From Chitinophagales bacterium (GTDB taxonomy: Bacteria > Bacteroidota > Bacteroidia > Chitinophagales > Saprospiraceae), in contig JBBRWA010000001.1 in assembly GCA_038246345.1 (NCBI GenBank), forward strand, positions 1 through 57,063: 57,063 nucleotides of DNA, given 5' to 3'. Made by a program: the position numbers and the translations under genes. Numbering within the stretch: the first letter of the stretch is position 1; each line of letters starts with the position of its first letter. The notes beneath the pieces are model-generated. The model saw nothing but the letters and a program-made list of their open reading frames with translations, did no database searches and was not told the origin of the DNA. Positions 1,909-56,205 of this stretch are shown piece after piece.

Positions 1909-2718
1909 ATGCAACAAGAAGACCTTGCTCAACTCACCCAGCGCGCCTGCAAAGCAGTGGAAGAAACCGCCACTTTCATCCAACAAGAAGCTGGTAAAGT
2001 GCAAAGCGGCCAAATAGAAGAAAAATTCCTCAACGGCTTGGTCAGTTATGTAGACCGCACTGCGGAGGAAATGCTCGTGGAGCGGCTCTCGGCCATCCTT
2101 CCGGGGGCAACCTTCATCACGGAAGAAGAAACCGTGGCACAAGGCAGCAGCGACCTGCAATGGATCATTGACCCGCTGGACGGCACCACCAATTTTTTGT
2201 ACAATGTGCCGCAGTATTCCATCAGTGTCGGCTTAAAAGCAGGCGATGAACTCGTGCTCGGCATCGTACACCATGTGCCCGCCAAGGAGCTTTTTTATGC
2301 CTGGAAAGGCGGCGGTGCCTGGTGCAATGGCCAGCCCATACGCGTAAGCAACCGCAGCAACATGCGGCAAGCATTGGTCGCGACGGGATTTCCTTACTAC
2401 GATTTTGAGCGTTCCGAAGCCTGGTTCGCAGCCATAAAAGTATTTATGGAACAAAGTCGCGGCATTCGGCGCTTCGGCTCGGCTGCGCTGGATCTGGCCT
2501 GGGTGGCCTGTGGCAGGTTCGATGTGTTTTTTGAATACGGCCTCAACGCCTGGGATGTTGCGGCAGGGGCGGTACTGGTTCGGGAGGCTGGCGGGCAGGT
2601 ATGTGATTTCTCTGGCGGAGATGATTTTATTGACAAAAGGGAGCTGTTTGCTGCCAATGCTGGGGTTTTTGAGGCTGCGATGGGGATTGTGAAAAAGGCG
2701 TTTGGTAAAACCTCGTAG
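1909..2718 (+). CDS. suhB: inositol monophosphatase family protein (SuhB-like)
   Basis: 269-aa ORF with IMPase motifs WIIDPLDGTTNF, ATGFPY and GSAALDLAWVACGRFD. Confidence 0.85.
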   Translation: MQQEDLAQLTQRACKAVEETATFIQQEAGKVQSGQIEEKFLNGLVSYVDRTAEEMLVERLSAILPGATFITEEETVAQGSSDLQWIIDPLDGTTNFLYNVPQYSISVGLKAGDELVLGIVHHVPAKELFYAWKGGGAWCNGQPIRVSNRSNMRQALVATGFPYYDFERSEAWFAAIKVFMEQSRGIRRFGSAALDLAWVACGRFDVFFEYGLNAWDVAAGAVLVREAGGQVCDFSGGDDFIDKRELFAANAGVFEAAMGIVKKAFGKTS

Positions 2719-2798
2719 GTCTTAAACCTCAGAACCCCCTACCCTAAAAGCGCCGCTTTTAGGGTAGGGGGTTCTGAGGTTTAAGACCTACGAGGTTT
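2708..2798. repeat. perfect 91-nt palindrome (45-bp arms, 1-nt centre at 2753)
   Basis: aaacctcgtaggtcttaaacctcagaaccccctaccctaaaagcg / c / exact reverse complement. The left arm contains the last 11 nt of the suhB-like CDS, including its TAG at 2716-2718. Confidence 0.9.
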
Positions 2799-2875
2799 CT
2801 GGCTCTCCTACCCAGCCTTTTTGAAAATTCAACTGTCTTATCGGCACTGCCCTTTCACCGAAAAAATAAATTGAC

Positions 2876-3923: not shown

Positions 3924-4040
3924 CTTTCAGGTCTCAAGGTTTCAGGTTTACGCGATTGGTTCGTGACTTTGAAACTCAATTTCAAAAATGACGATAAATC
4001 GAGTAAACCAGAAACCATGAAACCTGAAACCGTGAAACCC
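3924..4040. repeat. family E palindromic element with GGTTTCA/TGAAACC heptad arms
   Basis: Left arm ctttcaggtctcaaggtttcaggtttac (3924-3951). Right arm gtaaaccagaaaccatgaaacctgaaaccgtgaaaccc (4003-4040). The unique core is about 50 nt. Confidence 0.7.
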
Positions 4041-5026: not shown

Positions 5027-6310
5027 ATGAAAATATTGAAACTTATGCTTTGCTGCGCTATGCTGAGCAACCAGACATTTGCCCAAAACTGGACTACCTT
5101 GAATATTCCGAATGCCGGACGCTACGACGACTTGTTTTTCCTAAACGATTCTGTCGCCTGGGCCTGCAATAGCCAAGGGCAATCGTACAAAACGACCAAC
5201 AGCGGCCAATCATGGGTCAATTACCCGGTGTTTCCGGGCGACTATCTGCGCAGCATTAAATTTATGGATGCCGACACGGGTTTCTGTGGCGGGCTGGATA
5301 ATGGAAGTTATTTGTTCAGGTCCACCAACGGGGGACAAACCTGGACAAACATCACCAATAAAATTCCCGGCTTGTCGGGCGGTATTTGCGGACTATCTTG
5401 TCCGGGGGGAAAGGTTATATATGGCAGCGGTTATTTTGGCTCTCCGGCACATATTATAAAAAGTATCGATGGCGGCATTTCCTGGCAAAAGATAAACATG
5501 TCTGCTCAGGTATTATCTTTGGTCGATATCTTATTCACCAGCCAGGATACAGGCTGGGTAAGCGGAAGAGCCCTTCAGGATGGCGGCGGTGTTATTTTAC
5601 ATACTACTGATGGAGGCTCCAGTTGGCAAACAGTACACGATACTGGCATTCACGGCGATTACGTCTGGAAAATTCAGCGCTTGGATGCACAAAACTGGTT
5701 CGCTTCTGTTGAAAGGGATAACACCATTGGAGCCCAAACCAATATCCTTAAAAGCACCGATGGCGGTATTTCCTGGCAAACAATTTTAGTCAGCAACAGC
5801 TACCATAGGATCCAGGCGATAGGATTTGTTACCCCGCAGCATGGATGGGCAGGAGACACCAGACTTTTTGAAACAACCAACGGCGGCCAGTCCTGGCAGG
5901 ACATCAACCCTGGTTTGGGTATTGGCTACGCATTTAACCGCTTTGTGCGAATAAGTGACAAAAAAGCCTTTTTAACGGGGGGTAGGGTGTATCAATTCAA
6001 TGCCCCTTCAAGTGCTGCAGTAGATCCAATACCACCGGATGCCAACCATGACTTCCATGGCTTAACGGTATCACCCAACCCGACCAGCGACAAGGTTCAA
6101 ATCTCCATCACCTTGCGGCAAAAGACCCATGTAATTCTAAAAGTTTACGCCTTCAATGGCGGCTATGAGGAATTGCTTTGGACGGGAGAGCATGCCGAGG
6201 GCGACTATCTCTTGCAAGCAAGTCTTGCACACCAGCCAGCAGGCAACTATGTCGTGTATTTGAAAACAAACCACGGCACACAAACCCGGATGGTAACTTT
6301 GATACGGTAG
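5027..6310 (+). CDS. BNR/Asp-box repeat beta-propeller protein (Ycf48-like) with T9SS type-A sorting domain
   Basis: Signal peptide. Repeated S/TxDGGxSW boxes (STNGGQTW, SIDGGISW, TTDGGSSW, STDGGISW, TTNGGQSW). C-terminus LTVSPNPTSDKVQISI...GNYVVYLKT. Confidence 0.8.
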   Translation: MKILKLMLCCAMLSNQTFAQNWTTLNIPNAGRYDDLFFLNDSVAWACNSQGQSYKTTNSGQSWVNYPVFPGDYLRSIKFMDADTGFCGGLDNGSYLFRSTNGGQTWTNITNKIPGLSGGICGLSCPGGKVIYGSGYFGSPAHIIKSIDGGISWQKINMSAQVLSLVDILFTSQDTGWVSGRALQDGGGVILHTTDGGSSWQTVHDTGIHGDYVWKIQRLDAQNWFASVERDNTIGAQTNILKSTDGGISWQTILVSNSYHRIQAIGFVTPQHGWAGDTRLFETTNGGQSWQDINPGLGIGYAFNRFVRISDKKAFLTGGRVYQFNAPSSAAVDPIPPDANHDFHGLTVSPNPTSDKVQISITLRQKTHVILKVYAFNGGYEELLWTGEHAEGDYLLQASLAHQPAGNYVVYLKTNHGTQTRMVTLIR

Positions 6311-6511
6311 ACGGTAGACGGTAGACGGTGGACGGTGGGCGTTGGACGGTGGGCGGTTTGCACGGCGGTGTTTTTAGGCTTGGCATTTGTGTTTCAGCAC
6401 CCTTGATGTATCAAATTGATCGTTGGCTAAAGGCGCTGAAACACAAATGCTATTAGGTATTGAAATGTTGGGCCCCGTCCACCGTCTACCGTCTACCGTC
6501 TACCGTCTACC
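6306..6511. repeat. family A heptad-armed palindromic element, copy A1
   Basis: Left arm is 7 heptads (ggtagac x3, ggtggac, ggtgggc, gttggac, ggtgggc). Then ggtttgcac... inner gtgtttcagc/gctgaaacac pair. Right arm is gtccacc plus gtctacc x4. Confidence 0.9.
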
Positions 6512-6515
6512 GTTT

Positions 6516-7604
6516 CTACACCTCTTCCGGCCCTTCCCCAACCCAGTCCTGCTGCACCGCATTGTCTTCACAGTGCTCCAGCAATTGCTCGTCTATAAAC
6601 GCCCGCACTTCGTGTACGATATTGCCGGGGTAAAGTAAGTGCACATTTGGGCCAGCATCCAAAGTGAAATACACCGGATTGCCCGTATCGTGGCGGTATT
6701 GCCGTACTTTTTCAATGATGGCCAAAGAGCCAGGGCGCATAAGCGTGTAAGAAGGGTTGCTGGCCATCATCAGGGCGTGCAGGGTCAGGGCTTCGTCTTC
6801 CGCGATTTTACCAAACGCTTCAACGTCTCCAGCCCGCAACACATCCAGCAGTTTGCCGAGTCGCGCCCGCGCCTGGGCGTAGCGCGGCTCGGAAAATGGG
6901 TTGCCGTCCATCAGTTCATGGCCAGCACGGCTGCTAACAGCCTTTTCTTCTCGACTGACCAACAGAATATCATCGTGAAAATCTTTGAAGGTTTCGTGCA
7001 GCAGGTGATCCACCGGGATGGCAAATTCGTTGCTGCTGCCTTCCAACTGCAACGTTTCGCCCCACACTGCCGCTTGCGGGAAAATGGAGCGACAAGCTGA
7101 ACCACTGCCCAAACGCGCCAGATAAGAGGCTTTTTTATCATAAGCTGCCGGATCTTTCAAGGTTCCAAAAAGCTCGTCTTCCAGCGAGCACAGACACAAG
7201 GCCAGGGCCGACATGCTGGAGGCTGATGAAGCAATGCCCGCCGAATGGGGAAAGGAATTGCCGGATTGAACCGACAATTTCAGTTGTTTCAAAAATGGAT
7301 AAATGGGCAACAAGCTTTGCAAATATTCGAGGATTTTAGCGCAAAAAGCTTCGTTTTCTTGTTGGTGAAATAAAAATTCAAGCTCGATCTGCCCGTCGGG
7401 TTGGCCTTCTCTGAATTCATAATTGAGCATGGTATCTGTGAAGGACGCGGAAAGCGTCAAGCTCAGGGAAGGATTTCTAGGTAATTGAATGCCGTATTTG
7501 CCCCAATATTTAATGATGGCGATGTTGCTGGGGGAGCGCCAAGTGATGCTTCCGGCTTCAGGGATGTTGGATGAGTCGATGATAAGACGTGAATTCTCGT
7601 ACAT
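6516..7604 (-). CDS. mvaD: diphosphomevalonate (mevalonate diphosphate) decarboxylase
   Basis: 362-aa ORF with hallmark NIAIIKYWGK, GHMP-kinase-like SAGIASSASSMSALA, and RLGSGSACRS. Confidence 0.85.
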   Translation of the reverse strand: MYENSRLIIDSSNIPEAGSITWRSPSNIAIIKYWGKYGIQLPRNPSLSLTLSASFTDTMLNYEFREGQPDGQIELEFLFHQQENEAFCAKILEYLQSLLPIYPFLKQLKLSVQSGNSFPHSAGIASSASSMSALALCLCSLEDELFGTLKDPAAYDKKASYLARLGSGSACRSIFPQAAVWGETLQLEGSSNEFAIPVDHLLHETFKDFHDDILLVSREEKAVSSRAGHELMDGNPFSEPRYAQARARLGKLLDVLRAGDVEAFGKIAEDEALTLHALMMASNPSYTLMRPGSLAIIEKVRQYRHDTGNPVYFTLDAGPNVHLLYPGNIVHEVRAFIDEQLLEHCEDNAVQQDWVGEGPEEV

Positions 7605-7824: not shown

Positions 7825-8649
7825 ATGTGGCAAAGAATCCGGCGCTTGGGCGTTGAACTATATGCGTTTTTTACAACGCCTTTCGTGCTCAAAAACTGCC
7901 TGAGCATGCTGGGCTTAATGGCGGGCATACTCATGCTTACCTTTTGGTGGCTTAAGTGCTACACCAACCACGGCGATAGCGTGCAGGTGCCGAGCTACGT
8001 GGGCATGAGCTTCCGGGAAGCTGCCCGAAAAGCCCGCTCCCGCGACTTTGGGGTTGCCGTAAGCGACTCACTCTATGTACCGGGAAAACCGCCAGGCGAA
8101 ATCGTATCGCAAGACCCAAAGGCCGAAAGCCGGGTAAAAGAAGGGCGTACGATATATTTTACCGTAACCAAAAACAACCCCGACATCATCAAGCTCCCTG
8201 ATTTGGCGGGCAGCGACGACTATGAACTATACAGCCGAAAATTGAGCCGTTTGGGATTAAAACCACGCATTGTAGCGCGTGTCCCCGATCCGAAACTCGG
8301 ACCAAATGTCATCGTGGATGTAATGTATCACGGCGATACCATTACTCGAAAAATTCGATACGGAGTTCCGGTTGAAATGGGTTCCACCATTGATTTTATT
8401 GTGAGTGAGGAGGTTACGCTCACCGTCAACATCCCCGAATGTATCGGACAAACACTGGATGCGGCCAAATTTTTGATCCAAACCAGCGAACTAAATGTCG
8501 GCACCGTCATTCCCGATGGCACCGTTACCAAAGACGACCTCAATGCCTACGTGTACCGCCAGAGCCCGAAGTATGATGCGAACGGCACCATGCGCAAAGG
8601 GGAACAAATTGACCTTTATATCACGGCTGAAAAGCCCCCAAATAATTAA
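7825..8649 (+). CDS. PASTA domain-containing membrane protein
   Basis: N-terminal TM helix followed by three PASTA-like units (VPSYVGMSFREAARKA..., LPDLAGSDDYELYSRKLSRLGL..., IPECIGQTLDAAKFLI...). Confidence 0.75.
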   Translation: MWQRIRRLGVELYAFFTTPFVLKNCLSMLGLMAGILMLTFWWLKCYTNHGDSVQVPSYVGMSFREAARKARSRDFGVAVSDSLYVPGKPPGEIVSQDPKAESRVKEGRTIYFTVTKNNPDIIKLPDLAGSDDYELYSRKLSRLGLKPRIVARVPDPKLGPNVIVDVMYHGDTITRKIRYGVPVEMGSTIDFIVSEEVTLTVNIPECIGQTLDAAKFLIQTSELNVGTVIPDGTVTKDDLNAYVYRQSPKYDANGTMRKGEQIDLYITAEKPPNN

Positions 8650-8683
8650 TTTGACAATTTGACAATTTGACAATTTGACAATT
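8648..8683. repeat. tandem octamer array (AATTTGAC x4.5)
   Basis: aatttgac repeated four times plus aatt. It begins inside the TAA stop of the PASTA gene (8647-8649). Confidence 0.9.
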
Positions 8684-8749
8684 ATTAAGGATTTGTGATA
8701 AGCTGGGACCTTTTTCTTCCCGGACAAAATAAGGTCGCCAGCTCCCAAG

Positions 8750-8794
8750 CACTCATTCACCACTCACCACTCATCTCTCATCACTCATCACTCA
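8750..8794. repeat. family D tandem heptad array (TCAYCAC/CACTCAT), copy D1
   Basis: cactcat tcaccac tcaccac tcatctc tcatcac tcatcac tca. It ends 4 nt before the rhodanese ATG at 8799. Confidence 0.85.
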
Positions 8795-14440: not shown

Positions 14441-15772
14441 TTGCCCTGGCATAGAGTTGCAATCACAAATAGTTTGACATTGAAAACGAAATTTTTAAAA
14501 CCGATAAACACCCCGGAGGGACTAAGCTTTTGGAGCGCATGCCTACTGGTGGTCAGCATGGTGGTTTCGCCATTTTTGCTGTCGATCAGCATGTGGGGAC
14601 TCGTAGCAGCAGCCCTTTGGAATGTGGCAGCAAAATTATGTCAGGAAACGCCAGGAGTGTTCCTAAATTCGACCAACACCTGGAAAAAGGCACTGCTGCG
14701 CTCCTTCGAAAATCTCTGGGCAAACAAAAGTTTGACCCTTATGTCGCTCCTGCTGCTGGTGCCGGCATTGAGCATTTTTTGGAGCGAAGACCTAAGTTAT
14801 TGGCTTCGGGTAACGCAGGTGCGGCTCCCCTTTTTGGTGCTGCCCTGGGCATTTGCCAATCTGCCTGTATTGCAGGAACAAGACCACAAAAAGGTGCTAT
14901 ACCTATTGGTGTGGTTTATGGTATTGGTATGTATCGGCGTGGGCATTAACTTTTTATTGCACTACAACGAAATCATAGAAAAACTGGGGCATGGGCAGCC
15001 CATGCCCGTGCCAAGGCAGCATGTTCGTTTTAGCCTGGTGCTTGCTACTGCGATTATTGCTGGCGCCTGGCTATGGCGCACCCGCTTTTATGTGAAATTC
15101 CCTTGGGAACGGCAAGCCTTGGCGATTGCCCTAGCATTCCTTTTTCTATTTATCCATGTCCTTTCTGTGCGCGGGGGGCTTGCTGTTTTATATGCAGCGC
15201 TCCTGGTCTCCATTGCCTGGTACATTCAGCAAACCAAGCGTTGGGCCGTTGGCATCGTCGCCATAATATCCCTTTTCCTGTTGCTCTGGGCTGCTGTAGA
15301 AACCATACCAAGTCTTCGGCAGCGCGTTGCTTACATGCAATACGATTGGAAAAAATATAAAGCCGACGAAGGGGAGACTTATTCAGACGCAGAAAGGTGG
15401 ATATCCCTAAAGGTCGGATTCAGTATATGGGAAAAAAGCCCCTTGCTTGGCACTGGCGCCGGCGATTTGGAGGATGAGGTGATCCGCACAACAGCAGAAA
15501 AATTTCCGGATTATGCTGAAACACCCAAACTGCCGCACAACCAATGGATACACATCATGGCCAGCACGGGATTGTTGGGTTTAGCCCTAAGTCTGGTCGG
15601 TTTTTTTGCGCCTGTTTTCTCCCAAAAAAATCGAAAGAAGTACCTGTTTGTCATCTTTCAGGTCATGGTCTTTACCACCTTTATTATTGAATGCACGCTG
15701 GAAAACGCCATTGGGGTTTCGTGGTATCTTTTTTATACGCTCTGGTTTTTGACTATTGACGGTAGACGGTAG
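14441..15772 (+). CDS. O-antigen ligase (Wzy_C)-like polytopic membrane protein
   Basis: About 10 TM segments with a loop GTGAGD...PHNQWIHIMASTGLLG typical of O-antigen ligase-like proteins. The start is uncertain. The stop TAG lies in the second heptad of A2. Confidence 0.6.
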   Translation: MPWHRVAITNSLTLKTKFLKPINTPEGLSFWSACLLVVSMVVSPFLLSISMWGLVAAALWNVAAKLCQETPGVFLNSTNTWKKALLRSFENLWANKSLTLMSLLLLVPALSIFWSEDLSYWLRVTQVRLPFLVLPWAFANLPVLQEQDHKKVLYLLVWFMVLVCIGVGINFLLHYNEIIEKLGHGQPMPVPRQHVRFSLVLATAIIAGAWLWRTRFYVKFPWERQALAIALAFLFLFIHVLSVRGGLAVLYAALLVSIAWYIQQTKRWAVGIVAIISLFLLLWAAVETIPSLRQRVAYMQYDWKKYKADEGETYSDAERWISLKVGFSIWEKSPLLGTGAGDLEDEVIRTTAEKFPDYAETPKLPHNQWIHIMASTGLLGLALSLVGFFAPVFSQKNRKKYLFVIFQVMVFTTFIIECTLENAIGVSWYLFYTLWFLTIDGRR

Positions 15773-15926
15773 ACGGTGGACGGTTTGGACAGCGATTCGA
15801 GTTGCTTATGGGATGCGTTTTTCAGCACTATTGGCCAGAAAGTGGACGCTGAACCAAACGTGCTGAAAACCGATACCAAACGTGAAAACCAACGTTGTGC
15901 AAACCGTCCACCGTCTACAGTCCACC
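15761..15926. repeat. family A element, copy A2
   Basis: ggtagac ggtagac ggtggac ggtttggac...tttttcagcac...gtgctgaaaacc...tgtgcaaacc gtccacc gtctaca gtccacc. Confidence 0.9.
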
Positions 15927-15935
15927 GTTGAAAAA

Positions 15936-17621: not shown

Positions 17622-17679
17622 AGATATTGATCGTAATTATTTTGAATAAGGAGCGGCAAAGGTACGCAATGCTTTTTTC

Positions 17680-17862
17680 GGTAGACGGTGGACGTTAGAC
17701 GGCGGATGGTTTGCTCGGCTTTTGTGATGACTTAATCATTTGTTTTCCAGCACTTAAGTCAATATGTACTAATTATTTTTTTGATTTAAGTGCTGAAAAT
17801 CAATGCTAATCAATAAAGCAGATGCTGTGCAGCCGTCTACCGTCCACCGTCTACCGTCCACC
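17680..17862. repeat. family A element, copy A3
   Basis: ggtagac ggtggac gttagac ggcggat ggtttgctc...ttttccagcac...gtgctgaaaatcaatgctaat...gtctacc gtccacc gtctacc gtccacc. Confidence 0.9.
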
Positions 17863-18492
17863 GTTTTTCAGAACCGTTACCACATGGTCTTCAATTTCAG
17901 TCCCCACCGGATGCAAATAACTACGGATCCCCAGCGCCGCTGCTGCGGCAATATTTTCCGGAACATCATCAAAAAATATAGACTCTTCGGGTAAAATCTC
18001 CGCATCGGCCAATACATACTCGTAAATGGCGGTATCGGGCTTCCGAAGCCGGATCAAATGAGAGAAGTACACCCCATCGAAAAATCGGGATTCGTAGTCA
18101 TTGATGCCGTGCGCACGGGGCATATAATCAGCGATCCAACGCTCGTGCAGGTCGTTTATATTGCTGAGCAAGAACACCTTGTATTGTTGACGGAGCCGCA
18201 GCAGCATATCGAAACGGTGGCGCGGCATGTCAATAAATATAGCGTTCCAGGCGGCGATAACATCTGATTCAGCGAGCGGAGGATAGGCTGCGGTACAAAT
18301 GCTATCGACAAACTCTGCGGTGCTGATACCGCCCGTTTCATACATTTCAAAAAGCATGGCGCGGCGAAGCTTTTCTACCGCACTGTCATAATTATCGCCA
18401 AAAAACGGGCGGAGGTTGCGCTCAATAGCAGGCAGGTCAATGTCGAAAAGCACATTCCCGAAATCGAAGATGATGTTTTTTATTACAGGCAT
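17851..18492 (-). CDS. HAD-superfamily hydrolase (subfamily IA-like)
   Basis: Motif I-like IIFDFGNVLFD, motif II LLSNIN, and motif III/IV region FFDDVPENI. The stop TAG and the last 4 codons lie in the A3 right arm. Confidence 0.75.
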   Translation of the reverse strand: MPVIKNIIFDFGNVLFDIDLPAIERNLRPFFGDNYDSAVEKLRRAMLFEMYETGGISTAEFVDSICTAAYPPLAESDVIAAWNAIFIDMPRHRFDMLLRLRQQYKVFLLSNINDLHERWIADYMPRAHGINDYESRFFDGVYFSHLIRLRKPDTAIYEYVLADAEILPEESIFFDDVPENIAAAAALGIRSYLHPVGTEIEDHVVTVLKNGGR

Positions 18493-24700: not shown

Positions 24701-24808
24701 AAGTGCGCAGGAAAGCGAGTTTTCTTGCCAAACCTAAGCGCTGCTTTGTAAAGTTTAGCATTAGCGGTTAGTGCGTTCCTTCATTATTAATTGAAAAGCT
24801 TACTTCCT

Positions 24809-24941
24809 CTTACCCTGGGTTGTCTTGCTGTAGGCATCTGCCCACGTCTTGTGCGCTGAAAGCACAATAGGCTGCAGCATCGCGGTATTCTTTCCACTAG
24901 TGACGTGGACAGATGCTTACAGCAAGACAACTCAGGGTAAG
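24809..24941 (+). other. long imperfect hairpin (about 39-bp stem, 53-nt loop), candidate structured RNA or palindromic element
   Basis: cttaccctgggttgtcttgctgtaggcatctg-c-ccacgtc pairs with gacgtgg-a-cagatgcttacagcaagacaactcagggtaag. Both mismatches in the 32-bp part are G-U on the + strand. There is an inner hairpin ttgtgc-gctgaaa-gcacaa. Confidence 0.6.
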
Positions 24942-25063
24942 GGGACGAAAGTTCTGAACACGCTTCTCCCTTTTTCTCACAACAACAGCGCAACATTCCA
25001 TTCTCCGCCATTTGGATTTACCCCCAATGGCCCGTTTTGTATTTTCAAAACATGATTCTTTTC

Positions 25064-29642: not shown

Positions 29643-29655
29643 TAAAAATATGTGC

Positions 29656-30909: not shown

Positions 30910-31076
30910 TGATGGTATAATTTGATAATGTGATAATTAGATAGTGTGATAATTTTCGGCATCTGTGTCAGGCTTAATTAACGCAGGTTTTTGGGGTGTG
31001 AATTTGGGTAGGATGCGTAAAATTGAGTGCAAAGGTACGGATTCAGAATCCACAACGCGATATTTCAGCTTTGGTT

Positions 31077-32420: not shown

Positions 32421-32426
32421 TATTTC

Positions 32427-32701
32427 GTTGATAGTTGTTCGTTGATAGTTGTTCGTTCGCGTTGCTTGAGCTGGTGAAGAGGTAGCACCGCATTCAGGTC
32501 AATCCAGTTGACTTAAGAAGTCGGAGTGGTCAAACCATTAGGTCAACGATATTGGCCTGAAGGCAGCCTTCTGTGGTGCCGTGAAAATTCGTTGATGGTT
32601 TTCACAGAACCTGAGAGAGTCTTTGTAGAGTGGATTACACCAAACTACATTGAAACGCTAAACGCTCGGAAACGAACAACTATCAACAAACAACTATCAA
32701 C
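32427..32701. repeat. family C palindromic element with GTTGTTC/GTTGATA heptad arms, copy C1
   Basis: Left arm gttgata gttgttc gttgata gttgttc (32427-32454, degenerate to ~32466). Right arm gaacaac tatcaac aaacaac tatcaac (32674-32701). The unique structured core is about 200 nt. Confidence 0.85.
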
Positions 32702-32896
32702 GAAAACCGTAAAGGTAGAAGTCTCCCGAGGCTATTTGAGCCATTTTGGGCATAATATTGAAAACTTGGTCAAAACATGGACTTCTCAAAAAAGCCCGAA
32801 TTGTAGCTGTTGCAAATTTCCCGCTATTTTCACGTTGCCAAATTAATCGATCAGCACAGTGTACTTTGGAATTGCCATGTTACCTTTCGCCCCGTT

Positions 32897-38547: not shown

Positions 38548-38615
38548 TGGCCAAGCCCTTCCAGGTTTTTAAAACCTGGAAGGGCTAACGCTCGAATAGA
38601 ATATTGTTTTGTTTA
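38548..38615. repeat. family G hairpin repeat, copy G1
   Basis: ggccaagcccttccaggtttttaaaacctggaagggctaacgctcgaata... It is near-identical to 56138..56205. Confidence 0.85.
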
Positions 38616-39472: not shown

Positions 39473-39681
39473 ACCCATAGAGTTTTTACCACATAGCACA
39501 CATAGTCCACATAGCCGATTTTACGTACACCATTATTTTCTGCCAAATAGCACACATCGTTTTTTCTCAAAAACACCATAGCACTTCATGACGCCCAAAC
39601 GCAACGCCTATGTTTTCTATGTCCCTATGTGTCTATGTGTTGAATAACTATGTTTTCTATGTCCCTATGTATCTATGTGTT
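39473..39681. repeat. family B element, copy B2 (degenerate left arm, duplicated right arm)
   Basis: The left side has scattered cacATAGc units (39473-39582). The right arm ctatgttttctatgtccctatgtgtctatgtgtt occurs at 39608-39641, identical to 29608-29641, and again at 39648-39681 with 1 mismatch. Confidence 0.85.
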
Positions 39682-39820
39682 AAAAAACCGCCGCGGTAGC
39701 CCAGAAAACACGTCAAATTCGGACAATTCAGCATTTTCAGAAACCCAATGCCAATTAGGTCACGCAAAGAGATTATCTTAGCGCATTCAACCCTGAGAAC
39801 AACAACCAATTGCCTGCTTT

Positions 39821-44010: not shown

Positions 44011-44200
44011 TTTTGATTAATTTTTCTGCGTTGGGGGGATTACTGCTCAGGAGTTTGGGTTAAAAATTTCCAAGTCGATACTTGAAATGCTCGGCAAAAA
44101 CAGCATTCAGCCTAAATAAGAGATCGTCTATCACACGATAGCAAAATCAACCTAAATTCATCCCAAAACACACCTAATTTCGCCCAATCAAACCCAACTA

Positions 44201-44231
44201 CTCATCGCTCATCACTCATCACTCATCACTC
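44201..44231. repeat. family D heptad array (CTCATCA x4.4), copy D2
   Basis: ctcatcg ctcatca ctcatca ctcatca ctc. It is in frame with, and upstream of, the DUF2142-like ORF. Confidence 0.85.
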
Positions 44232-45658: not shown

Positions 45659-46294
45659 CTATGCAATTAACTCAAGGGCATCAAAAATTTCATCAATCTC
45701 CTCAAACGATTTCACGCCTACCTGTTCTTCTTCTCCACCGACCAGGCTAAAGCCGCCCAGTTTGAATTTTTGCAACAATTCCGGCAATTGTGCTGCAGAA
45801 ACATCTGCCTGCAAAAGCGTCGGGCGCAAGGAAAACAGTTCGTTCCAAAAATCAATGTTCTCGGTTAATATGGTTTCCCAGTCACTTGTTTCAGAAAAAT
45901 CAAGCAGAAAACAGGAAACATTTGGTGCAGCGCCACGAAATGTACGTTCCAAAGTAGCGGCATCAATGGCTCCATTTACGCGCAAAATAATTTCAACCCC
46001 TGGCAATTGCAGCAAGCTGTCTTCATGGTGTTCCGCTGTAAGCTGTACAGCATCCAAGCCAAAAAAATCCAAGGCCGCCTTCACATGTGCGATGGGTAAC
46101 TTCGTGAATTCACCCACAATTTTTGGCCCGGCCACCCATTCCCGAATGGCTTTCATGTACATGGGGTCCAGGTACCCGGGTGTGCCTTCTTCGAGGTTAA
46201 ACCCAAGATAATCAACCTCTTTGGCCGCAAAATAGCGGGCATCGGTGAGATTTGTGACGGCGGAAACCTTTGTTTTTAGTTGTTCGTTGTTCAT
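45659..46294 (-). CDS. phosphoribosylanthranilate isomerase (TrpF)-like TIM-barrel protein, divergent
   Basis: By eye it aligns with PRAI landmarks: K-V-S-A-V-T..DA where TrpF has K-I-C-G-I-T, then VGEF, DAVQL, and a C-terminal GG.E...GVKS..EI. The start codon lies inside the C2 repeat arm. Confidence 0.45.
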   Translation of the reverse strand: MNNEQLKTKVSAVTNLTDARYFAAKEVDYLGFNLEEGTPGYLDPMYMKAIREWVAGPKIVGEFTKLPIAHVKAALDFFGLDAVQLTAEHHEDSLLQLPGVEIILRVNGAIDAATLERTFRGAAPNVSCFLLDFSETSDWETILTENIDFWNELFSLRPTLLQADVSAAQLPELLQKFKLGGFSLVGGEEEQVGVKSFEEIDEIFDALELIA

Positions 46295-46577
46295 TGCTCG
46301 TTGTTCGTTTTCATTCGCTCAAATCTTGTTTGGCATCCTGATAATGCCGCATTTGTTCGGTAGTTGGCGATGGAAATCGCCAAAGGTAGTTGTTCGTTGA
46401 TAGTTGTTCGTTGTTCGTTCTCATTCACTCAAATCTTGTTTGGCACCCAGATAATGCCGCTATCGAGTAGATGAGGATAAACAGAATATCCAGCGAGAAT
46501 TGAGTGGATGAGAACGAACAACGAACAACGAACAACTATCAACGACTAACGAACAACGAACAACGAGCAACGAACAA
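46279..46577. repeat. family C element, copy C2 (internally duplicated)
   Basis: Left arm gttgttc gttgttc attgctc gttgttc (46279-46306). A ~110-bp tandem duplication restarts the arm at 46389-46416. Right arm is 9 heptads gaacaac/tatcaac/gactaac/gagcaac (46515-46577). Confidence 0.85.
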
Positions 46578-46589
46578 CGAAGAAAGAAC

Positions 46590-46597
46590 GTAGTTTT
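46590..46597 (+). promoter_or_regulatory. candidate -7 box (TAnnTTTG)
   Basis: TAGTTTTG lies 13 nt after the C2 right arm and 46 nt upstream of the ATG at 46644. Confidence 0.4.
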
Positions 46598-55000: not shown

Positions 55001-56079
55001 ATTACACCGTCACGGTCACGGGTGCCAATGGCCTCACCAAAACAATATCGGGAACGGTGAGTTCTCCGGCGGTGCTGGCCACCAACGCTATGGCACAGTT
55101 GGCTTTCGGGCAATTCCCGCTGAGCTGCATCGGTGCAACAGATGCGACCATACAAACAATGACCACGGGTGGTACCACGGCGTATCAATATGCCTGGAGT
55201 GTTGCCGGGCAAACGGGCGCGACCCTTTCAAACATCGGGGTTGGCACGTATACGGTCACCATAACAGATGCCAATCAATGCAGCACGACCAGTTCGGCAA
55301 TGGTTATTGCGCCGCCGCCGCTGCGTTTCGACATCGCCATTGCGGGCGTGGAATGTGGAGAAGACGTTGCTACGGCCCTGATTACCCCTTCTGGTGGTGC
55401 AACGCCGTTCAAGGTGCAAGTAGATGGCGTTCCAGCCGCCGGTGGCCTGATGCCAAGCATTCCCGATGGGCAGCATTTGGTTGAAATCAGCGATGCGTAT
55501 GGTTGTACGGCCGATACGATGGTTACAGTGACATTACCGCCTGTGCCCTTCATTGCCTTGCCTGCTGAAGAGACGGTTTCGCTCGGCGAAACACTGGTAC
55601 TACAGGCCCAAACAAACCTCGCAAGCTGGCAAAGCCTGGTGTGGACACCATTGCCGGACTCCGCTTGCGCCAATTGCTTGCGCCAGGAGTGGATACCCGA
55701 AGTTTCCAGGGTGTACACAGTCGCCATCACCGATACTTTTGGCTGCCGCGCCACCGCTTCCGTGCGGGTAATGGTGCGCAAACAAATAGACATCTACATC
55801 CCGAACGTATTTTCGCCCAACCTCGACGGCTCCAATGATTTTTGGGTGCTGAATGCCGGGCCATCCGTAGTAGCCTTGAATTCACTTCAAATTTTCGACC
55901 GCTGGGGCAGCATGGTCTATTACTGGGATTCACCCATACCGGCGAATGAATGGCCGGGATGGGACGGAATGTACCGTGGTGACAAAGTCAACCCGGGCGT
56001 TTTTGTGTATTATTTGAGGGTGAAACTGGTGAATGGGGAGGTGGTGTTGAAGATGGGGGATTTGACGGTGGTGCGGTAG
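49081..56079 (+). CDS. giant (2,332 aa) cell-surface adhesin: 14 PKD-like/CHU_C-associated repeat modules, SprB repeats, gliding-motility (T9SS type-B, CHU_C) C-terminal domain
   Basis: Signal peptide MRLSKLFNIFAFGLFCAATSIQAQ. There are 14 modules of ~86 aa with pattern NQxVCAG..V...F.GT.....F.WTN.NTAIGL.ASG.GNISF.A.NV......ITVTP..NGC.G..Q.FTITVNP.P. SprB-type repeats include CFGDGDGSLSLSAAGGLAPYSYIWS. The C-terminus has IYIPNVFSPNLDGSNDFW...IFDRWGSMVY...WDGMYRGDKVNPGVFVYYL. Confidence 0.9.
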   Translation: MRLSKLFNIFAFGLFCAATSIQAQTVIYTNAGTTHTNTDQVTTDTYGPVDVSNCTSISFSISYNFSLPFPGNGNMESSDECLIGIPPCQGDPNDPYGGGCDNCWDFFYVQFQINGATVNTRLVGVPGMTNQSGTITYGPVCTNGAATAGLIVQTNTWAMNESITFNAISITCWDATSSNLMANPSPACTGVPFTLGATLVHPADVTTTVWTGPGTITPPTSLNPTVTNAPAGNNTYVLTVTDDNGCTKTNSIDVLVTTGPTMDDPPNQIVCAGDPVNAIFVGTGNPTFNWTNSNTAIGLAASGSGDISFTASNVAAPTTGTITVTPSENGCVGTPQTFTVTVNPLPSVNQPNNVLICAGLPVNIPFTGTPGATFSWTNDNTAIGLGASGNGNISFVSALVANQEVANITVIPFRNGCPGPPVNFTITVNPRPTVVDPPDMSVCAGNPVDLVFTGTGNPTFNWLNNNTNIGLSSNGMGDISFTAANVGVPTTGTITVTPTANGCVGTNQSFTIMVNPTPSVNQPSNVVVCSGAPVITVISGSPGASFSWTNDNTNVGLGAAGLGSINFTAANVSTQQVANIFITPTINGCPGPPVSYTITVNPIPTVVDPPNQTVCSGAMVTLPFSGTVNPTFSWTNSNTAIGLGASGTGSISFTAANVGAPTTGNLTVTPTENGCPGMPQNFTITVTPAPSVNQPSNILACANTSIMAAFTGTSGATFNWTNSNTSIGLAASGTGDLNFIAAGVGTQQTATITVTPVIGTCSGTAVTFTIIINPAPAVTDPPNQTVCSGTTVAVNFTGTSNPTFNWVNDNTAIGLAASGAGNISFTAAAIGVGTVTVTPVANGCIGASQNFTITVIAAPIVDLPVAVGACAGNPVATTFTGTSGATFAWTNSNTAIGLGANGTGNIAFSAANVGVITTGNISVTPSLGGCTGTPQNFVITINPLPTISITSVVCAADLLTYNVIISTSGTMVTATAGTVTGSAGNFTISGITAGTNVDISSTNTTTGCQLVQSVNAPNCNCAPVNAPTTPNNPMICEGAPIPALTVTTDPGNTVDWYTSATGGTLLLMGSASFTPTGPFMPGVYNFYAESRDPSTSCVSSIRLLVTLTVNALPTVTLPLNQAVCAGVQVGVVFAGTASAAFAWTNSEPAIGLAASGSGDINFMATNVGSTPLVANLTVTPNLNGCPGTPQNFTITVNPIPTVTAPVNQTVCGGASVMQVFSGTTGAMYNWTNSNIAIGLAASGAGNISFTAANVAAPTLGNLTVTPTLAGCIGSTQNFNITVNPLPTVMAPANQSVCAGNAVAVNFSGTNGATFNWTNANTAIGLAATGMGNISFMGTNAGAIPIVANLVVTPTQNGCTGAAQNFSITIDPRPTITVNSTTCSPDLLTYSVNLTSNANTILSTLGTVSGNGTNFNITGIPNGSLIILTATITATGCSIQQSVNPPNCTCPLLTAPNGPNFPVICEGTATPALMVNAPGAGNAVDWYTTPAGGVPVFVGSNSYTPPGTFTPGTYIFYAETREISSNCKSPTRTPVFLTVNGAPSMTQPINQSVCAGFTISVGFNGTSGALFNWTNSNPGIGLPASGSGNISFSATNTGLAPIVATIVVTPTLFGCNGQARTFTITVLPSPSLTDPADIAACVGQSVSANFSGSAGATFSWINTNAAIGLPASGMGNISFNASTAGNATVTVIPMANSCSGTPQTFNITVISNPTMTNPGNQAACAGANVSLVFTGTPGLTYSWTNTNPAIGLPASGAGNLNFSAAAVTTVQNAQISVTPIFGACVGQSQTFSITVNPLPVASISGNTTICSGSATTLTAMGGTSASWLSGQSTAAITVSPTTTTTYTATVTANACSSTATATVIVNQPTSSTVNALTCDPAQVGSVTNVIPNAAGCDSTITTVTTLDVVNCAPALTLSNGAVSCFGDGDGSLSLSAAGGLAPYSYIWSNGSNQMGAGMITTGGTTAQLLNLPAGNYTVTVTGANGLTKTISGTVSSPAVLATNAMAQLAFGQFPLSCIGATDATIQTMTTGGTTAYQYAWSVAGQTGATLSNIGVGTYTVTITDANQCSTTSSAMVIAPPPLRFDIAIAGVECGEDVATALITPSGGATPFKVQVDGVPAAGGLMPSIPDGQHLVEISDAYGCTADTMVTVTLPPVPFIALPAEETVSLGETLVLQAQTNLASWQSLVWTPLPDSACANCLRQEWIPEVSRVYTVAITDTFGCRATASVRVMVRKQIDIYIPNVFSPNLDGSNDFWVLNAGPSVVALNSLQIFDRWGSMVYYWDSPIPANEWPGWDGMYRGDKVNPGVFVYYLRVKLVNGEVVLKMGDLTVVR

Positions 56080-56137
56080 GGGTTATGTCAAAAGTCCGAG
56101 CATTGAAAATGTTGCCAAACTTTATTTCGATTTTATT

Positions 56138-56205
56138 GGCCAAGACCTTCCAGGTTTTTAAAACTTGGAAGGCCTAACGCTCGAATAAAATTAAATTTTG
56201 TTGAT
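56138..56205. repeat. family G hairpin repeat, copy G2
   Basis: ggccaagaccttccaggtttttaaaacttggaaggcctaacgctcgaata... It lies 59 nt after the adhesin stop and 30 nt from the stop of the convergent gene. Confidence 0.85.

What the first reader, a model, noticed from the sequence alone, without database searches (positions are those of the whole stretch)
2708..56205. Window-scale pattern: about 16 of ~40 intergenic spacers hold palindromic elements, most with arms made of 7-8-nt tandem repeats
At least seven sequence-unrelated families appear in the spacers. A, B, C and E share one design: a run of short-period tandem units, a unique and often hairpin-rich core, then the reverse-complement run. 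Family D consists of tandem arrays whose two sides are not complementary. Families F and G are plain hairpin repeats, and there is also one 91-nt perfect palindrome. Family A uses GGTAGAC/GGTGGAC and has 4 copies. Family B uses CACATAGA and has 2 copies. Family C uses GTTGTTC/GTTGATA and has 2 copies. Family D uses CTCATCA plus an AATTTGAC array and has 2 copies. Family E uses GGTTTCA and has 1 copy. F and G have 2 copies each. Different unit sequences with the same architecture suggest a common generating or selecting mechanism rather than one mobile element. The closest analogies I know are cyanobacterial STRR heptamer arrays and REP/BIME or MITE-like palindromes. I do not recall heptad arrays used as paired inverted arms being described. 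No transposase or RAYT-like gene is present in the window.
Basis: partly seen in the sequence, partly recalled or inferred. Interest (0 to 1): 0.8.

Follow-up and report, generated by a model that had tools for sequence, protein, structure and literature searches.

The report
Hairpin repeats with heptad-array arms
About a third of the gene spacers in this Saprospiraceae (Bacteroidota) stretch hold long hairpin-forming repeats whose arms are fast-changing runs of 7-8-base units, a little-studied but already reported kind of bacterial repeat that, in other bacteria, usually brackets a small gene (the 23S rRNA intervening-sequence protein).

Summary
The window has 22 short-period arrays against about 2 in shuffles, and 10 have an inverted partner against 0. 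Twelve of 30 spacers of at least 50 nt fold far better than shuffles.

The window is ordinary Saprospiraceae chromosome and encodes no transposase.

Family A, (GACGGTR)n-core-(YACCGTC)n, is a dispersed 190-215-nt imperfect palindrome. The stop codons of the inward-reading neighbour genes lie in or directly beside its outermost heptads. Between strains about 99% identical in one protein, the cores barely change but the arms gain or lose whole units. A sister species carries a different repeat-armed palindrome in the same spacer.

The design is not new. Paired inverted heptamer arrays were reported in Xanthomonas and Geobacter metallireducens, and as STRR hairpins in cyanobacteria.

I found no report of the following link. 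The same heptad, design and polarity bracket 23S-rRNA-IVS-protein genes (PF05635). All 4 such genes in the loci fetched with the heptad pattern are flanked this way. So are 67 of 80 metagenomic loci and 3 of 3 Bacteroidaceae contexts, mostly as 5'-(NNNCAGT)n..gene..(ACTGNNN)n-3'.

Best reading: gene-less foldback elements of that class, living at gene ends. How they spread and what they do are inferred, not shown.

The parts
6301..6516 (.). Family A copy 1: (GACGGTR)n, inner boxes GTTTGCAC and TTTCAGCAC, a loop, their complements, then (YACCGTC)n. It fills a convergent spacer.
   Evidence: The stop of 5027-6310 is the TAG of the first heptad. The stop of 6516-7604 directly follows the last heptad. 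The spacer folds with z = -12.1. Unit numbers differ between strains: (6,8), (4,6) and (5,7).
15758..15928 (.). Family A copy 2, in a convergent spacer between the Wzy_C gene and FTCD.
   Evidence: The stop of 14441-15772 lies inside the array. z = -10.0. The right arm has one extra unit in strains L121, L123 and L124.
17679..17864 (.). Family A copy 3, in a tandem spacer downstream of the HAD hydrolase gene and upstream of the FTCD promoter box.
   Evidence: The stop of 17851-18492 is the TAG of a heptad. z = -10.0. The same spacer in L125-L127 holds different repeat-armed palindromes.
28706..28886 (.). Family A copy 4, in a convergent spacer between SHMT and PnuC.
   Evidence: Both stop codons lie inside the arrays. 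SHMT ends ..[11 protein letters not shown], with its last residues read from the heptads. z = -9.7.
29527..29646 (.). Family B copy 1: (CACATAGA)n, a 17-nt core, then (TCTATGTG)n. Tandem spacer.
   Evidence: The DNA fold gives -37.5 kcal/mol, z = -12.1.
39490..39688 (.). Family B copy 2: a degenerate left arm (CACATAGCA), a core of about 90 nt, and a duplicated right arm. Divergent spacer.
   Evidence: D12: the right arm is 91% identical to B1. It is a weak hairpin: the spacer has z = -1.7.
32423..32705 (.). Family C copy 1: (GTTGATA/GTTGTTC)n, a 213-nt core, then the complement array. Divergent spacer, starting 3 nt from the start codon of 32001-32420.
   Evidence: (I10: 35-nt arms, 97% complementary). 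z = -9.1.
46269..46591 (.). Family C copy 2: two left arms (a 74-nt direct repeat) and an 11-unit right array (AACGAAC). Divergent spacer.
   Evidence: D13. z = -11.2. The core is unrelated to that of C1.
3925..4039 (.). Family E: (GGTTTCA)n, a core, then (TGAAACC)n. Convergent spacer.
   Evidence: The DNA fold gives z = -8.0.
8648..8794 (+). D1: (AATTTGAC)4.5 starting at the stop of 7825-8649, and (TCACTCA)6 ending 5 nt before the start of 8799-9113. The two arrays are not complementary.
   Evidence: The spacer has z = -0.6. Both arrays change by whole units between strains.
44142..44231 (+). D2: a 22-nt unit repeated twice, plus (ACTCATC)4.6, lying 110 nt upstream of 44342-45523. Divergent spacer.
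   Evidence: D11.
30917..30955 (.). An unpaired octad array (ATAATKTG)n directly upstream of the start of 29656-30909.
2708..2798 (.). A perfect palindrome of 45 + 1 + 45 nt that overlaps the stop codon of the inositol monophosphatase gene.
   Evidence: I2. The DNA fold gives z = -15.9. No other copy occurs in any locus fetched.
24799..24951 (.). A plain inverted repeat with 50-nt arms, 88% complementary, upstream of a TonB-dependent receptor gene.
   Evidence: I3. The DNA fold gives z = -10.7.
38548..38613 (.). Plain hairpin repeat, copy 1 (15-bp stem plus a conserved tail).
   Evidence: D16; z = -5.5.
56137..56202 (.). Plain hairpin repeat, copy 2 (88% identical to copy 1).
   Evidence: (D16).

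Best explanation
**What they are.** The repeat-armed palindromes (families A, B, C and E) are gene-less members of a widespread class of bacterial stem-loop ("foldback") repeat elements. Their stems are built from tandem 7-8-nt units.

**Same class as.**
- The paired inverted heptamer arrays of Xanthomonas and Geobacter.
- The STRR hairpins of cyanobacteria.
- The inverted heptad arrays that I find around most 23S-rRNA-IVS-protein (IVP, PF05635) genes.

**Shown.**
- The elements are real and form hairpins.
- Copies of a family share arms, and in family A also inner boxes, at unrelated sites. They were therefore copied and dispersed.
- Polarity is fixed.
- They sit at gene ends, with arrays running up to or over the stop codon of the inward-reading gene.
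- Arms change by whole units between near-identical strains while cores stay constant.
- Sister species hold different families in the same spacer.
- The IVP gene and its arms occur together in unrelated genomic contexts.

**Inferred.**
- The window's elements are non-autonomous (MITE-like) relatives of IVP cassettes, or use the same unknown machinery.
- The conserved core of the unit (CAGT, CAAT or CGGT) is a recognition or cleavage motif.
- Arms are kept complementary by arm-to-arm templating together with slippage.
- In transcripts the elements form long double-stranded stems at mRNA 3' ends, or in 5' UTRs for family C. Such stems could block exonucleases, pause or stop transcription, or be cut by RNase III, as happens to IVS stems in 23S rRNA.
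For: **Window.**
- Arrays and partners far exceed chance, and the hairpins have z from -8 to -16.
- Family A has a consensus hairpin of 54 pairs, 9 of them kept through changes on both sides.
- Stop codons lie in or directly beside the outermost heptads for all six inward-reading genes next to family A.

**Across 119 loci from a 185,579-species genome set.**
- The same heptad occurs in Saprospiraceae, Lewinellaceae, Chitinophagales, Gemmatimonadota, Chloroflexota, Acidobacteriota and Planctomycetota.
- Partner orientation is 45 inward against 3 outward.
- Of 161 arrays, 81 have an ORF of at least 100 codons that stops within -30..+20 nt of the outer edge. The control rate is 8.7%.

**Micro-evolution.**
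- Changes come in whole units, the two A1 arms co-vary in unit number, and the cores stay nearly constant.
- The HAD-FTCD spacer holds a different element at 92-93% FTCD identity.

**IVP link.**
- All 4 IVP ORFs in the pattern-selected loci lie between or beside GACGGTR arrays.
- Of 80 metagenomic IVP loci, 67 have period-7 arrays within 350 nt of the gene.
- Of 75 loci with both flanks, 49 have bracketing inverted 10-mers, against 8 of 154 control windows.
- Of the 75 loci with enough sequence on both flanks, 57 have a bracketing stem of at least 24 bp, median 31 bp.
- CAGT occurs in 32 of 59 left arrays and ACTG in 1. ACTG occurs in 31 of 59 right arrays and CAGT in 2.
- Array density is 2.85 per kb beside the gene against 0.23 per kb elsewhere on the same contigs. 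Twenty of the 55 distant arrays carry the same unit within one mismatch.
- IVP pairs at least 75% identical share the unit in 18 of 36 cases, against 81 of 2145 pairs overall. Several such pairs show no flank homology.
- Of 83 outer array edges, 55 abut the stop of an inward-reading ORF.
- Bacteroidaceae IVP genes lie between (AATTGAC)n and (GTCAATT)n in 3 of 3 contexts.

**Literature.** A 28-bp terminal-repeat stem cut by RNase III is established for the Coxiella IVS (PMC4990558).
Against: - No IVP gene or remnant occurs in the window or in any Saprospiraceae or other non-Bacteroidaceae Bacteroidota locus fetched.
- Families B and C and the octads lack the CAGT-type core, so they may be a different system.
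- I saw no target-site duplication, no empty site and no insertion polymorphism among four strains. Mobility is inferred only from dispersal.
- No candidate mobilising enzyme was found. IVP is a four-helix bundle with no known catalytic activity.
- Mismatches in IVP bracket stems show no G.U bias on the sense strand (51 against 65, p = 0.23). Selection on a sense-strand RNA stem is therefore not shown.
- Runs of T after the hairpins are inconsistent, so these are not canonical intrinsic terminators.
- The heptad loci were chosen by the heptad itself, so its spread across phyla cannot be compared with that of other units.
Confidence: 0.6

Rival explanations
1. The elements arise in place. Polymerase slippage seeds 7-8-nt arrays in spacers. 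Template switching at replication forks, or selection for strong 3' hairpins, then copies them into inverted arms. No mobile element is involved, and the shared design reflects a shared mutational process.
For: - Arms change by whole units between strains.
- Unpaired arrays are common: 108 of 156 GACGGTR arrays have no partner, and D1, D2 and 30917 in the window are unpaired.
- Core-less forms exist, such as L017 with 1 nt between the arms.
- A perfect 91-nt palindrome at 2708-2798 suggests that palindromes are being formed recently.
- Heptamer excess was attributed to slippage by Mrazek 2007, as cited in PMC4679880.
- Hairpins are enriched in convergent spacers: 6 of 9, against 2 of 10 divergent spacers.
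Against: - The four family A copies share non-repetitive inner boxes at unrelated sites.
- B1 and B2 share a 46-nt right arm at 91% identity.
- The same unit, with the same fixed polarity (45 against 3), occurs in distant phyla.
- A conserved CAGT with fixed polarity around a homologous gene is not what neutral slippage predicts.
- The IVP gene and its arms occur together in unrelated contexts.
Confidence: 0.2
2. The arrays are arrays of binding sites for a host protein, such as a nucleoid protein, a global regulator or a cold-shock-type single-strand binder. The inverted pairs are functional regulatory or architectural modules kept by selection.
For: - A conserved tetranucleotide sits inside otherwise variable heptads.
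- Arrays lie directly upstream of start codons at 8753-8794 and 30917-30955, as described for TAACTGA repeats (PMC4679880) and for Nostoc heptamers.
- The Geobacter authors proposed IHF/HU or unknown global regulators.
Against: - Several unrelated units coexist in one genome.
- Copy number differs between strains 99% identical in FTCD.
- The same spacer carries unrelated units in sister species.
- Neighbouring genes have no common function.
- A 7-nt period puts successive sites on different faces of the double helix.
Confidence: 0.1
3. They are REP/BIME-type or REPIN elements spread by a RAYT (TnpA-REP) transposase encoded elsewhere in the genome. The GTRG inside GGTRGAC would be the REP tetranucleotide.
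For: - They are intergenic, palindromic, high in copy number and enriched at 3' ends.
- GGT[AG]GAC contains GT[AG]G (read directly from the sequence).
- IS elements insert at a fixed distance from the Geobacter paired sites, as they do at REPs.
Against: - The arms are tandem arrays of variable unit number, not a single 20-40-nt imperfect palindrome.
- Most units (NNNCAGT, CACATAGA, GTTGTTC) have no GTAG.
- No RAYT occurs in the window. None was looked for in the flanks of the other loci.
Confidence: 0.05

Closest known systems
Convergent GGGAATC heptamer arrays of Xanthomonas campestris and X. citri (Rehm et al. 2015, PMC4692102)
   Same: - Two heptamer arrays on opposite strands, close together, able to form stem-loops, with 70-75 pairs per genome.
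- About 90% are intergenic.
- They lie close to the neighbouring ORF (mean 28 nt).
- Length and sequence vary between close species, and most are transcribed.
   Different: - The unit is G-rich, and the authors studied it as a quadruplex former.
- One unit dominates, whereas the window has several.
- No link to IVP genes or to stop codons was reported. The solved IVP structure 2GSC is from X. campestris.
Paired putative global-regulator sites, classes 1-3, of Geobacter metallireducens (Aklujkar et al. 2009, PMC2700814)
   Same: - Several unrelated families coexist in one genome.
- Each family consists of pairs of sites on opposite strands.
- Each site is 3-5 tandem units of 7-9 nt (GTTGCTYN, TCTCCGTS[Y], MTYCTGA).
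- The distance between the two sites of a pair is variable.
   Different: - The authors read them as IHF/HU or regulator sites.
- They are described only in supplementary figures.
- IS elements insert at a fixed distance from them.
- The organism is a deltaproteobacterium.
Cyanobacterial STRR heptamers and bacterial long simple-sequence repeats
   Same: - Intergenic tandem heptamers, hypervariable in copy number.
- STRR hairpins are noted between hupS and hupL and upstream of hoxW (PMC2670836).
- Heptamers are the most over-represented long simple-sequence-repeat class (Mrazek 2007, as cited).
- From memory, not checked here: STRR1 is CCCCAGT and STRR3 is CAACAGT, which would fit the NNNCAGT form.
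   Different: They are usually described as direct arrays. Pairing is mentioned only in passing, and no associated gene is known.
23S rRNA intervening sequences carrying an S23p/IVP ORF (Leptospira, Coxiella; PMC4990558)
   Same: - A stem-loop element with terminal inverted repeats. The Coxiella stem is 28 bp, and the bracket stems found here have a median of 31 bp.
- The IVP ORF lies in the loop.
- They are regarded as selfish and horizontally moved.
   Different: - They are inserted in rRNA helices rather than between protein genes.
- Their stems are not reported to be heptad arrays.
- The window's elements have no ORF.
REP/BIME/REPIN elements with RAYT, and bacterial MITEs
   Same: Short, intergenic, palindromic, dispersed and non-coding, and often at 3' ends.
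   Different: - No single-unit REP hairpin with a 5' GTAG.
- No RAYT and no transposase relative found.
- No target-site duplication.
- Arms made of variable tandem units.
Foldback (FB) transposons of Drosophila (from memory)
   Same: Long inverted arms made of short tandem repeats, variable in number, around a variable or absent centre.
   Different: They are eukaryotic, with units of 10-31 bp. There is no evidence of relatedness, so this is an analogy only.
TAACTGA direct heptamer repeats of Beggiatoaceae, cyanobacteria and Bacteroidetes (MacGregor 2015, PMC4679880)
   Same: - Heptamer arrays scattered across phyla, often next to start codons, like D1, D2 and 30917 here.
- The reverse complement rotates to TATCAGT, which fits NNNCAGT.
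   Different: They are almost all direct repeats: 169 direct sets against one indirect set.

Membership tests
Long simple-sequence repeats / STRR-type heptamer arrays | Head-to-tail copies of a 5-11-nt unit, more and longer than chance, mostly intergenic | tested here: met
   TRF output. There are 22 arrays against about 2 in shuffles. All listed element arrays lie in spacers or overlap only the last codons of genes.
Long simple-sequence repeats / STRR-type heptamer arrays | Copy number varies by whole units between close strains | tested here: met
   A1, A2 and D1 differ by multiples of 7 or 8 nt among the window and L121-L124.
Paired inverted heptamer arrays (Xanthomonas / Geobacter type) | Two arrays of the same unit on opposite strands, in convergent orientation, separated by a variable spacer | tested here: met
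   (arms 74-100% complementary, spacers 1-238 nt). Orientation is 45 inward against 3 outward for the family A unit across loci.
IVS / IVP stem-loop cassette | Terminal inverted repeats forming a stem of about 25-30 bp or more | tested here: met
   Window stems are 27-77 nt. IVP loci have a median stem of 31 bp.
IVS / IVP stem-loop cassette | An ORF of the PF05635 / TIGR02436 family in the loop | tested here: not met
   A jackhmmer search and an HMM built from about 80 IVPs, run against all ORFs of at least 20 aa in the window, found nothing.
IVS / IVP stem-loop cassette | Excision of the stem-loop from RNA by RNase III | not testable with these tools
   This needs RNA end mapping. It is known only for rRNA IVSs.
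REP / BIME / REPIN | A 20-40-nt imperfect palindrome with a conserved 5' GT[AG]G | tested here: not met
   The arms are tandem arrays. GTRG occurs only inside the family A unit and is absent from B, C and E.
REP / BIME / REPIN | A cognate RAYT (Y1 transposase) gene in the genome | tested here: inconclusive
   None occurs in the 57-kb window. The rest of the genome was not available.
MITE | Terminal inverted repeats shared with an autonomous IS, and a target-site duplication | tested here: not met
   There is no direct repeat at the ends of A1-A4. No related IS was found in any locus.
Intrinsic (Rho-independent) terminator | A GC-rich hairpin immediately followed by a run of U on the transcribed strand | tested here: inconclusive
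   TTTT follows A4 and A3 on the + strand. A1, A2 and the minus-strand sides have none. The stems are far longer than those of usual terminators.
Any Rfam family, tRNA or tmRNA | A match at the curated threshold | tested here: not met
   Rfam 15 at gathering thresholds gave 0 matches. ARAGORN found 0 genes.

The most novel reading that the evidence does not exclude
Inverted arrays of heptamers, typically 5'-(NNNCAGT)n ... (ACTGNNN)n-3', would be the ends of a previously unrecognised family of selfish stem-loop elements found across phyla.
- The full form carries the 23S-rRNA-IVS protein gene. That protein is a four-helix bundle related to the Avd protein of diversity-generating retroelements.
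- The gene-less forms, like those in this window, would far outnumber the full form.

If so, one mechanism would account for four things:
- the long-known excess of heptamer repeats in bacterial genomes;
- cyanobacterial STRRs;
- the paired arrays of Xanthomonas and Geobacter;
- the origin of rRNA intervening sequences.
Probability: 0.35. Interest if true: 0.85.

Novelty: new member of a known kind. Interest (0 to 1): 0.62.

Why it matters
Heptamer repeats are the most over-represented long simple repeats in many bacterial genomes. They have lacked an explanation since STRRs were described in cyanobacteria.

This window shows the paired, hairpin-forming version in a new lineage, Saprospiraceae, at high density. 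The elements run into the ends of housekeeping genes and alter their last codons.

Following the family A unit outward gave a concrete lead. The same design brackets most genes of the IVP family, itself a long-standing orphan known from rRNA intervening sequences and related to the DGR protein Avd. That makes the question testable: does IVP, or a partner enzyme, bind or cut the (NNNCAGT)n arms?

There are also practical consequences.
- The arrays break short-read assemblies. Several contigs in this work end inside them.
- They shift predicted stop codons, so gene calls differ between strains. The Wzy gene is called at 393 aa in one strain and 422 aa in another.

Tried and rejected
- **Known RNA genes.** Rfam at gathering thresholds and a tRNA scan of the window found nothing.
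- **Finding the source genome.** An exact-protein look-up of the BNR protein found nothing. The SHMT look-up found only a 3.8-kb contig that ends in the array.
- **Family A core elsewhere.** The core pattern TTCAGCAC..GTGCTGAA is absent from all loci of other species, so the core is species-specific.
- **Literature by sequence.** A search for the family A unit string gave only an unrelated eukaryotic hit. A search for STRR unit strings gave only noise, so the STRR units I quote are from memory.
- **Orthologous spacers beyond about 90% FTCD identity.** Gene order is lost in L128 and L129, and no DNA was available for P0013. I found no empty site.
- **Target-site duplications at A1-A4.** None seen.
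- **RNA against DNA.** A G.U-against-A.C asymmetry test on IVP bracket stems showed no bias. It is inconclusive.
- **IVP remnants** in window cores and in Bacteroidota loci: none.
- **Other copies of the 91-nt palindrome:** none.
- **Stop codons facing inward in all three frames as a designed feature of the units.** This holds for A, B, C and the D octad, but not for E or for most NNNCAGT units. I therefore treat it as a consequence of arrays abutting genes.
- **Telomerase-like addition of units to both ends of a break.** It would explain the fixed polarity and the core-less forms, but no evidence bears on it.
- **CRISPR, integron attC and assembly artefact.** Rejected on anatomy. In addition, independent assemblies from four samples carry the same elements.

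Full report
**1. What is in the window**

The window is 57 kb at about 50% G+C. It holds some 40 ordinary chromosomal genes.
- Examples are SHMT, FTCD, two 2-oxoacid dehydrogenase E2 subunits, alanine racemase fused to a Mur ligase, TonB-dependent receptors, several proteins with type IX secretion tails, and a 2354-aa SprB/CHU_C adhesin.
- Spacers repeatedly contain CAAAGGTA, the reverse of the Bacteroidota -7 promoter box TAnnTTTG (the box itself is from general knowledge).
- Where the closest FTCD homologues carry a source name, they are called Saprospiraceae.
- There is no transposase, RAYT, tRNA or Rfam match.

**2.

The repeat finder pairs them as inverted arms.
- My own scan finds 22 arrays of period 6-9, against a mean of 1.98 in 50 Markov shuffles. 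Ten have an inverted partner, against none in any shuffle.
- Of the 30 spacers of at least 50 nt, 12 fold with z below -3 against dinucleotide shuffles, and most of those fall between -7 and -15.
- By spacer class, that is 6 of 9 convergent, 4 of 11 tandem and 2 of 10 divergent spacers.
- Folded as DNA, B1, E, the 91-nt palindrome and the 24.8-kb inverted repeat give z from -8 to -16.

**3. Anatomy of family A**

- The four copies align over their whole length, on both strands.
- Each reads: (GACGGTR)3-7; GGTTTGCACRGC; about 30 variable nt; TTTCAGCAC; a loop of about 35 nt; GTGCTGAAA; about 30 variable nt; GYTGTGCAAACC; (GTCYACC)3-7.
- The consensus fold is one long hairpin of 54 pairs. Nine pairs are kept through changes on both sides.
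- The inner boxes are not repetitive and occur at four unrelated sites, so family A was copied and dispersed.
- That core occurs only in this species among all loci fetched.
- B1 and B2 share arms (the right arm is 91% identical over 46 nt) but not cores. C1 and C2 likewise share only arms.
- Arms conserved and cores free is therefore the rule.

**4. Position relative to genes**

- A1, A2, A4 and E fill convergent spacers. A3 and B1 lie downstream of one gene and upstream of the next. C1, C2 and B2 lie in divergent spacers.
- For all six genes that read into a family A element, the stop codon lies in or directly beside the outermost heptads, usually as the TAG of a GGTAGAC unit. SHMT ends ...[11 protein letters not shown], with its last residues read from the array.
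- This is general.
- In those loci plus the window, 81 of 161 arrays have an ORF of at least 100 codons that reads inward and stops within -30..+20 nt of the outer edge. At random positions the rate is 8.7%. Peaks fall at -2, -1, +5, +12 and +19, that is, inside the first three heptads.

**5. Spread and polarity of the family A unit**

- The 119 loci come from Saprospiraceae, Lewinellaceae, Haliscomenobacter, Chitinophagales and other Bacteroidota. They also come from Gemmatimonadota, Chloroflexota, Acidobacteriota (Pyrinomonadaceae, Blastocatellia), Planctomycetota and others.
- When an array has a partner within 500 nt, the order is (GACGGTR)n ... (YACCGTC)n in 45 cases and the reverse in 3.
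- Cores range from 1 nt to about 590 nt and are unrelated between taxa.
- The same loci hold about 180 further arrays of other units, many of them paired.
- These loci were selected by the unit itself, so I cannot say whether this unit is more widespread than others.

**6. How the elements change**

*Between strains.* Four assemblies from different samples carry FTCD 99% identical to the window's, in the same gene order.
- The cores of A1, A2, A3 and D1 are nearly invariant, but the arrays differ by whole units.
- In A1 the two arms have (6,8), (4,6) and (5,7) units in three haplotypes. They also switch together from TAGACGG/CCGTCTA units to TGGACGG/CCGTCCA units.
- In A2 only one arm changes.
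- Slippage is therefore shown. Coupling of the two arms is suggested by one element only.

*Between species.* In two species with FTCD 92-93% identical, the HAD-FTCD spacer holds no A3.
- It holds other repeat-armed palindromes instead. One has unit ACAACGAC, and in one of the two species there is also a second with unit GATTGAC.
- More distant Saprospiraceae carry yet other families: three copies with CAATGCG/AATGTAT units in 22 kb, and one with GACGGYT.
- I saw no empty site and no target-site duplication.

**7. The link with IVP genes**

*First sign.* Two of the largest cores, in a Gemmatimonadota locus (L020) and a Planctomycetota locus (L084), each encode a protein of about 125 aa of Pfam family 23S_rRNA_IVP (PF05635; E = 8e-21 and 1e-37). 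The family is also TIGR02436, the "four helix bundle protein". It is related to the Avd protein of diversity-generating retroelements and to PDB 2GSC.

*Within the fetched loci.* A profile search of all ORFs in the roughly 1 Mb of loci found four such genes. All four lie between or directly beside GACGGTR arrays.

*Independent test.* I scanned metagenome contigs with an alignment of three of these proteins and kept the best 80 loci.
- 67 of 80 have period-7 arrays within 350 nt of the gene.
- 49 of 75 loci with both flanks have inverted 10-mers bracketing the gene, against 8 of 154 windows shifted by 1.5-2.2 kb.
- 57 have a bracket stem of at least 24 bp, at least 75% paired, with a median of 31 bp.
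- Array density is 2.85 per kb beside the gene and 0.23 per kb elsewhere on the same contigs.
- Units differ from locus to locus, but CAGT occurs in 32 of 59 left arrays (ACTG in 1) and ACTG in 31 of 59 right arrays (CAGT in 2). A given tetranucleotide is expected in about 3% of random heptads.
- The general form is 5'-(NNNCAGT)n .. gene .. (ACTGNNN)n-3'. The family A unit rotates to RGACGGT, and L084 mixes GACGGTG with GACAGTG.
- IVP proteins at least 75% identical share the unit in 18 of 36 pairs, against 81 of 2145 pairs overall. Several such pairs have no homology in their flanks. Gene and arms therefore occur together in different contexts.
- 20 of 55 arrays far from the gene carry the same unit as the gene's flanks, within one mismatch, including gene-less palindromes such as L187 2160-2247.
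- 55 of 83 outer array edges abut the stop codon of an inward-reading ORF, the same niche as family A.

*In Bacteroidota.* Relatives of the protein of PDB entry 2RLD, which sources name as Bacteroides, Phocaeicola or Bacteroidaceae where they name them at all, lie between (AATTGAC)n and (GTCAATT)n. This holds in all three contexts read: between the aldolase and arabinose isomerase genes in two species, and between an aminotransferase and a DAHP synthase gene. That unit resembles the window's D1 octad AATTTGAC.

**8. What this does and does not show for the window**

- No IVP gene or remnant is present in the window or in any Saprospiraceae locus fetched.
- The tie between family A and IVP cassettes rests on four shared features: the unit, the design, the polarity and the genomic niche.
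- Families B and C and the octads lack the CAGT-type core and may be a separate system.
- A test for G.U over A.C mismatches on the IVP sense strand showed no bias (51 against 65, p = 0.23). Selection on a sense RNA stem is not shown, and a DNA-level or two-strand constraint fits equally well.
- Runs of T after the hairpins are inconsistent.

**9. Comparison with what is known**

The design has been reported before.
- Xanthomonas: 70-75 convergent pairs of GGGAATC arrays, close to ORF ends, variable between species and mostly transcribed (PMC4692102).
- Geobacter metallireducens: three classes of paired sites on opposite strands, each made of 3-5 tandem 7-9-nt units, guessed to bind IHF/HU (PMC2700814).
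- Cyanobacteria: STRR hairpins (PMC2670836).
- Direct heptamer arrays are discussed by MacGregor (PMC4679880).
- rRNA intervening sequences with an S23p ORF are known as selfish stem-loops with a terminal stem of about 28 bp that RNase III cuts (PMC4990558).

I found no paper that connects heptamer arrays with IVP genes. The library covers only open-access papers and preprints, so absence there is not proof.

**10. Verdict**

- The finding is real. It is a new lineage-level instance of a known but unexplained repeat design.
- The most likely account is gene-less foldback elements of the class that brackets IVP genes. They reside at gene ends, and their arms evolve by unit slippage.
- The mode of spread and any function in RNA are inferred, not shown.
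- In-place origin by slippage plus palindrome formation remains a serious rival for the unpaired arrays and for the single perfect palindrome.

Noticed in passing
window 3881-3909 and 45618-45646: A 29-nt repeat (90% identical) combines CAAAGGTA, the reverse of the Bacteroidota -7 promoter box, with a 13-nt hairpin GTCCCGATGGGAC. Both copies lie in convergent spacers. If the box is a promoter, it would drive transcription antisense into the 3' end of the + strand gene.
   Followed up: no
window 38548-38613 and 56137-56202: A 66-nt repeat (88% identical) has a 15-bp hairpin and a conserved tail TAACGCTCGAATA, followed by an ACAAGGTA or similar box. It may be a combined terminator and promoter module. 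The second copy folds more weakly (z = -2.4).
   Followed up: partly
window 2708-2798: A perfect 45 + 1 + 45 palindrome overlaps the stop codon of the inositol monophosphatase gene. No other copy occurs in any locus fetched. Its perfection suggests very recent formation.
   Followed up: partly
window 32423-32720: Element C1 lies between a -7-like box (TACCTTTA on the minus strand, about 32707-32720) and the start codon of 32001-32420. The 5' UTR of that gene would therefore contain the whole 280-nt hairpin.
   Followed up: no
window 8648-8683; L210 1935-1998 and 2395-2425: The window's octad AATTTGAC differs by one extra T from the heptad AATTGAC that flanks IVP genes in Bacteroidaceae. In the window it has no complementary partner.
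   Followed up: partly
L121 11857-13038 against L122 11770-13038: The predicted Wzy_C protein is 393 aa in one strain and 422 aa in another. The predicted end lies in or next to the A2 element, so the element probably accounts for the difference; I did not read the L122 spacer in full. The elements may therefore alter C-termini and gene calls.
   Followed up: partly
L210-L216 (Bacteroidaceae): IVP genes with their heptad arms sit inside operons, in the same direction as the neighbouring genes. One site lies between the aldolase and arabinose isomerase genes. The other lies between an aminotransferase and a DAHP synthase gene. Unit number differs between samples (L210 against L211).
   Followed up: partly
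L125 19004-19197: A tandem repeat of 32-nt period whose 25-nt unit GTACTGCCAACCTCCAGGTTGGCAA is itself largely palindromic, with at least five copies.
   Followed up: no
L014 1330-1570; L080 4230-4570: These are nested designs. Outer GACGGKR arrays enclose inner arms made of a second kind of short repeat: TTTGAGTTTGG-type in L014, and GGCTCCGCCTC-type with GACGGGG units in L080.
   Followed up: no
window 49015-56079: A 2354-aa SprB/CHU_C type IX secretion adhesin with about 20 diverged copies of a 258-nt (86-aa) repeat.
   Followed up: partly
L010, L038, L053, L092, L093, L099, L119, L120: Many contigs begin or end inside heptad arrays, so these repeats break short-read assemblies and will be under-counted in metagenome-assembled genomes.
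   Followed up: no
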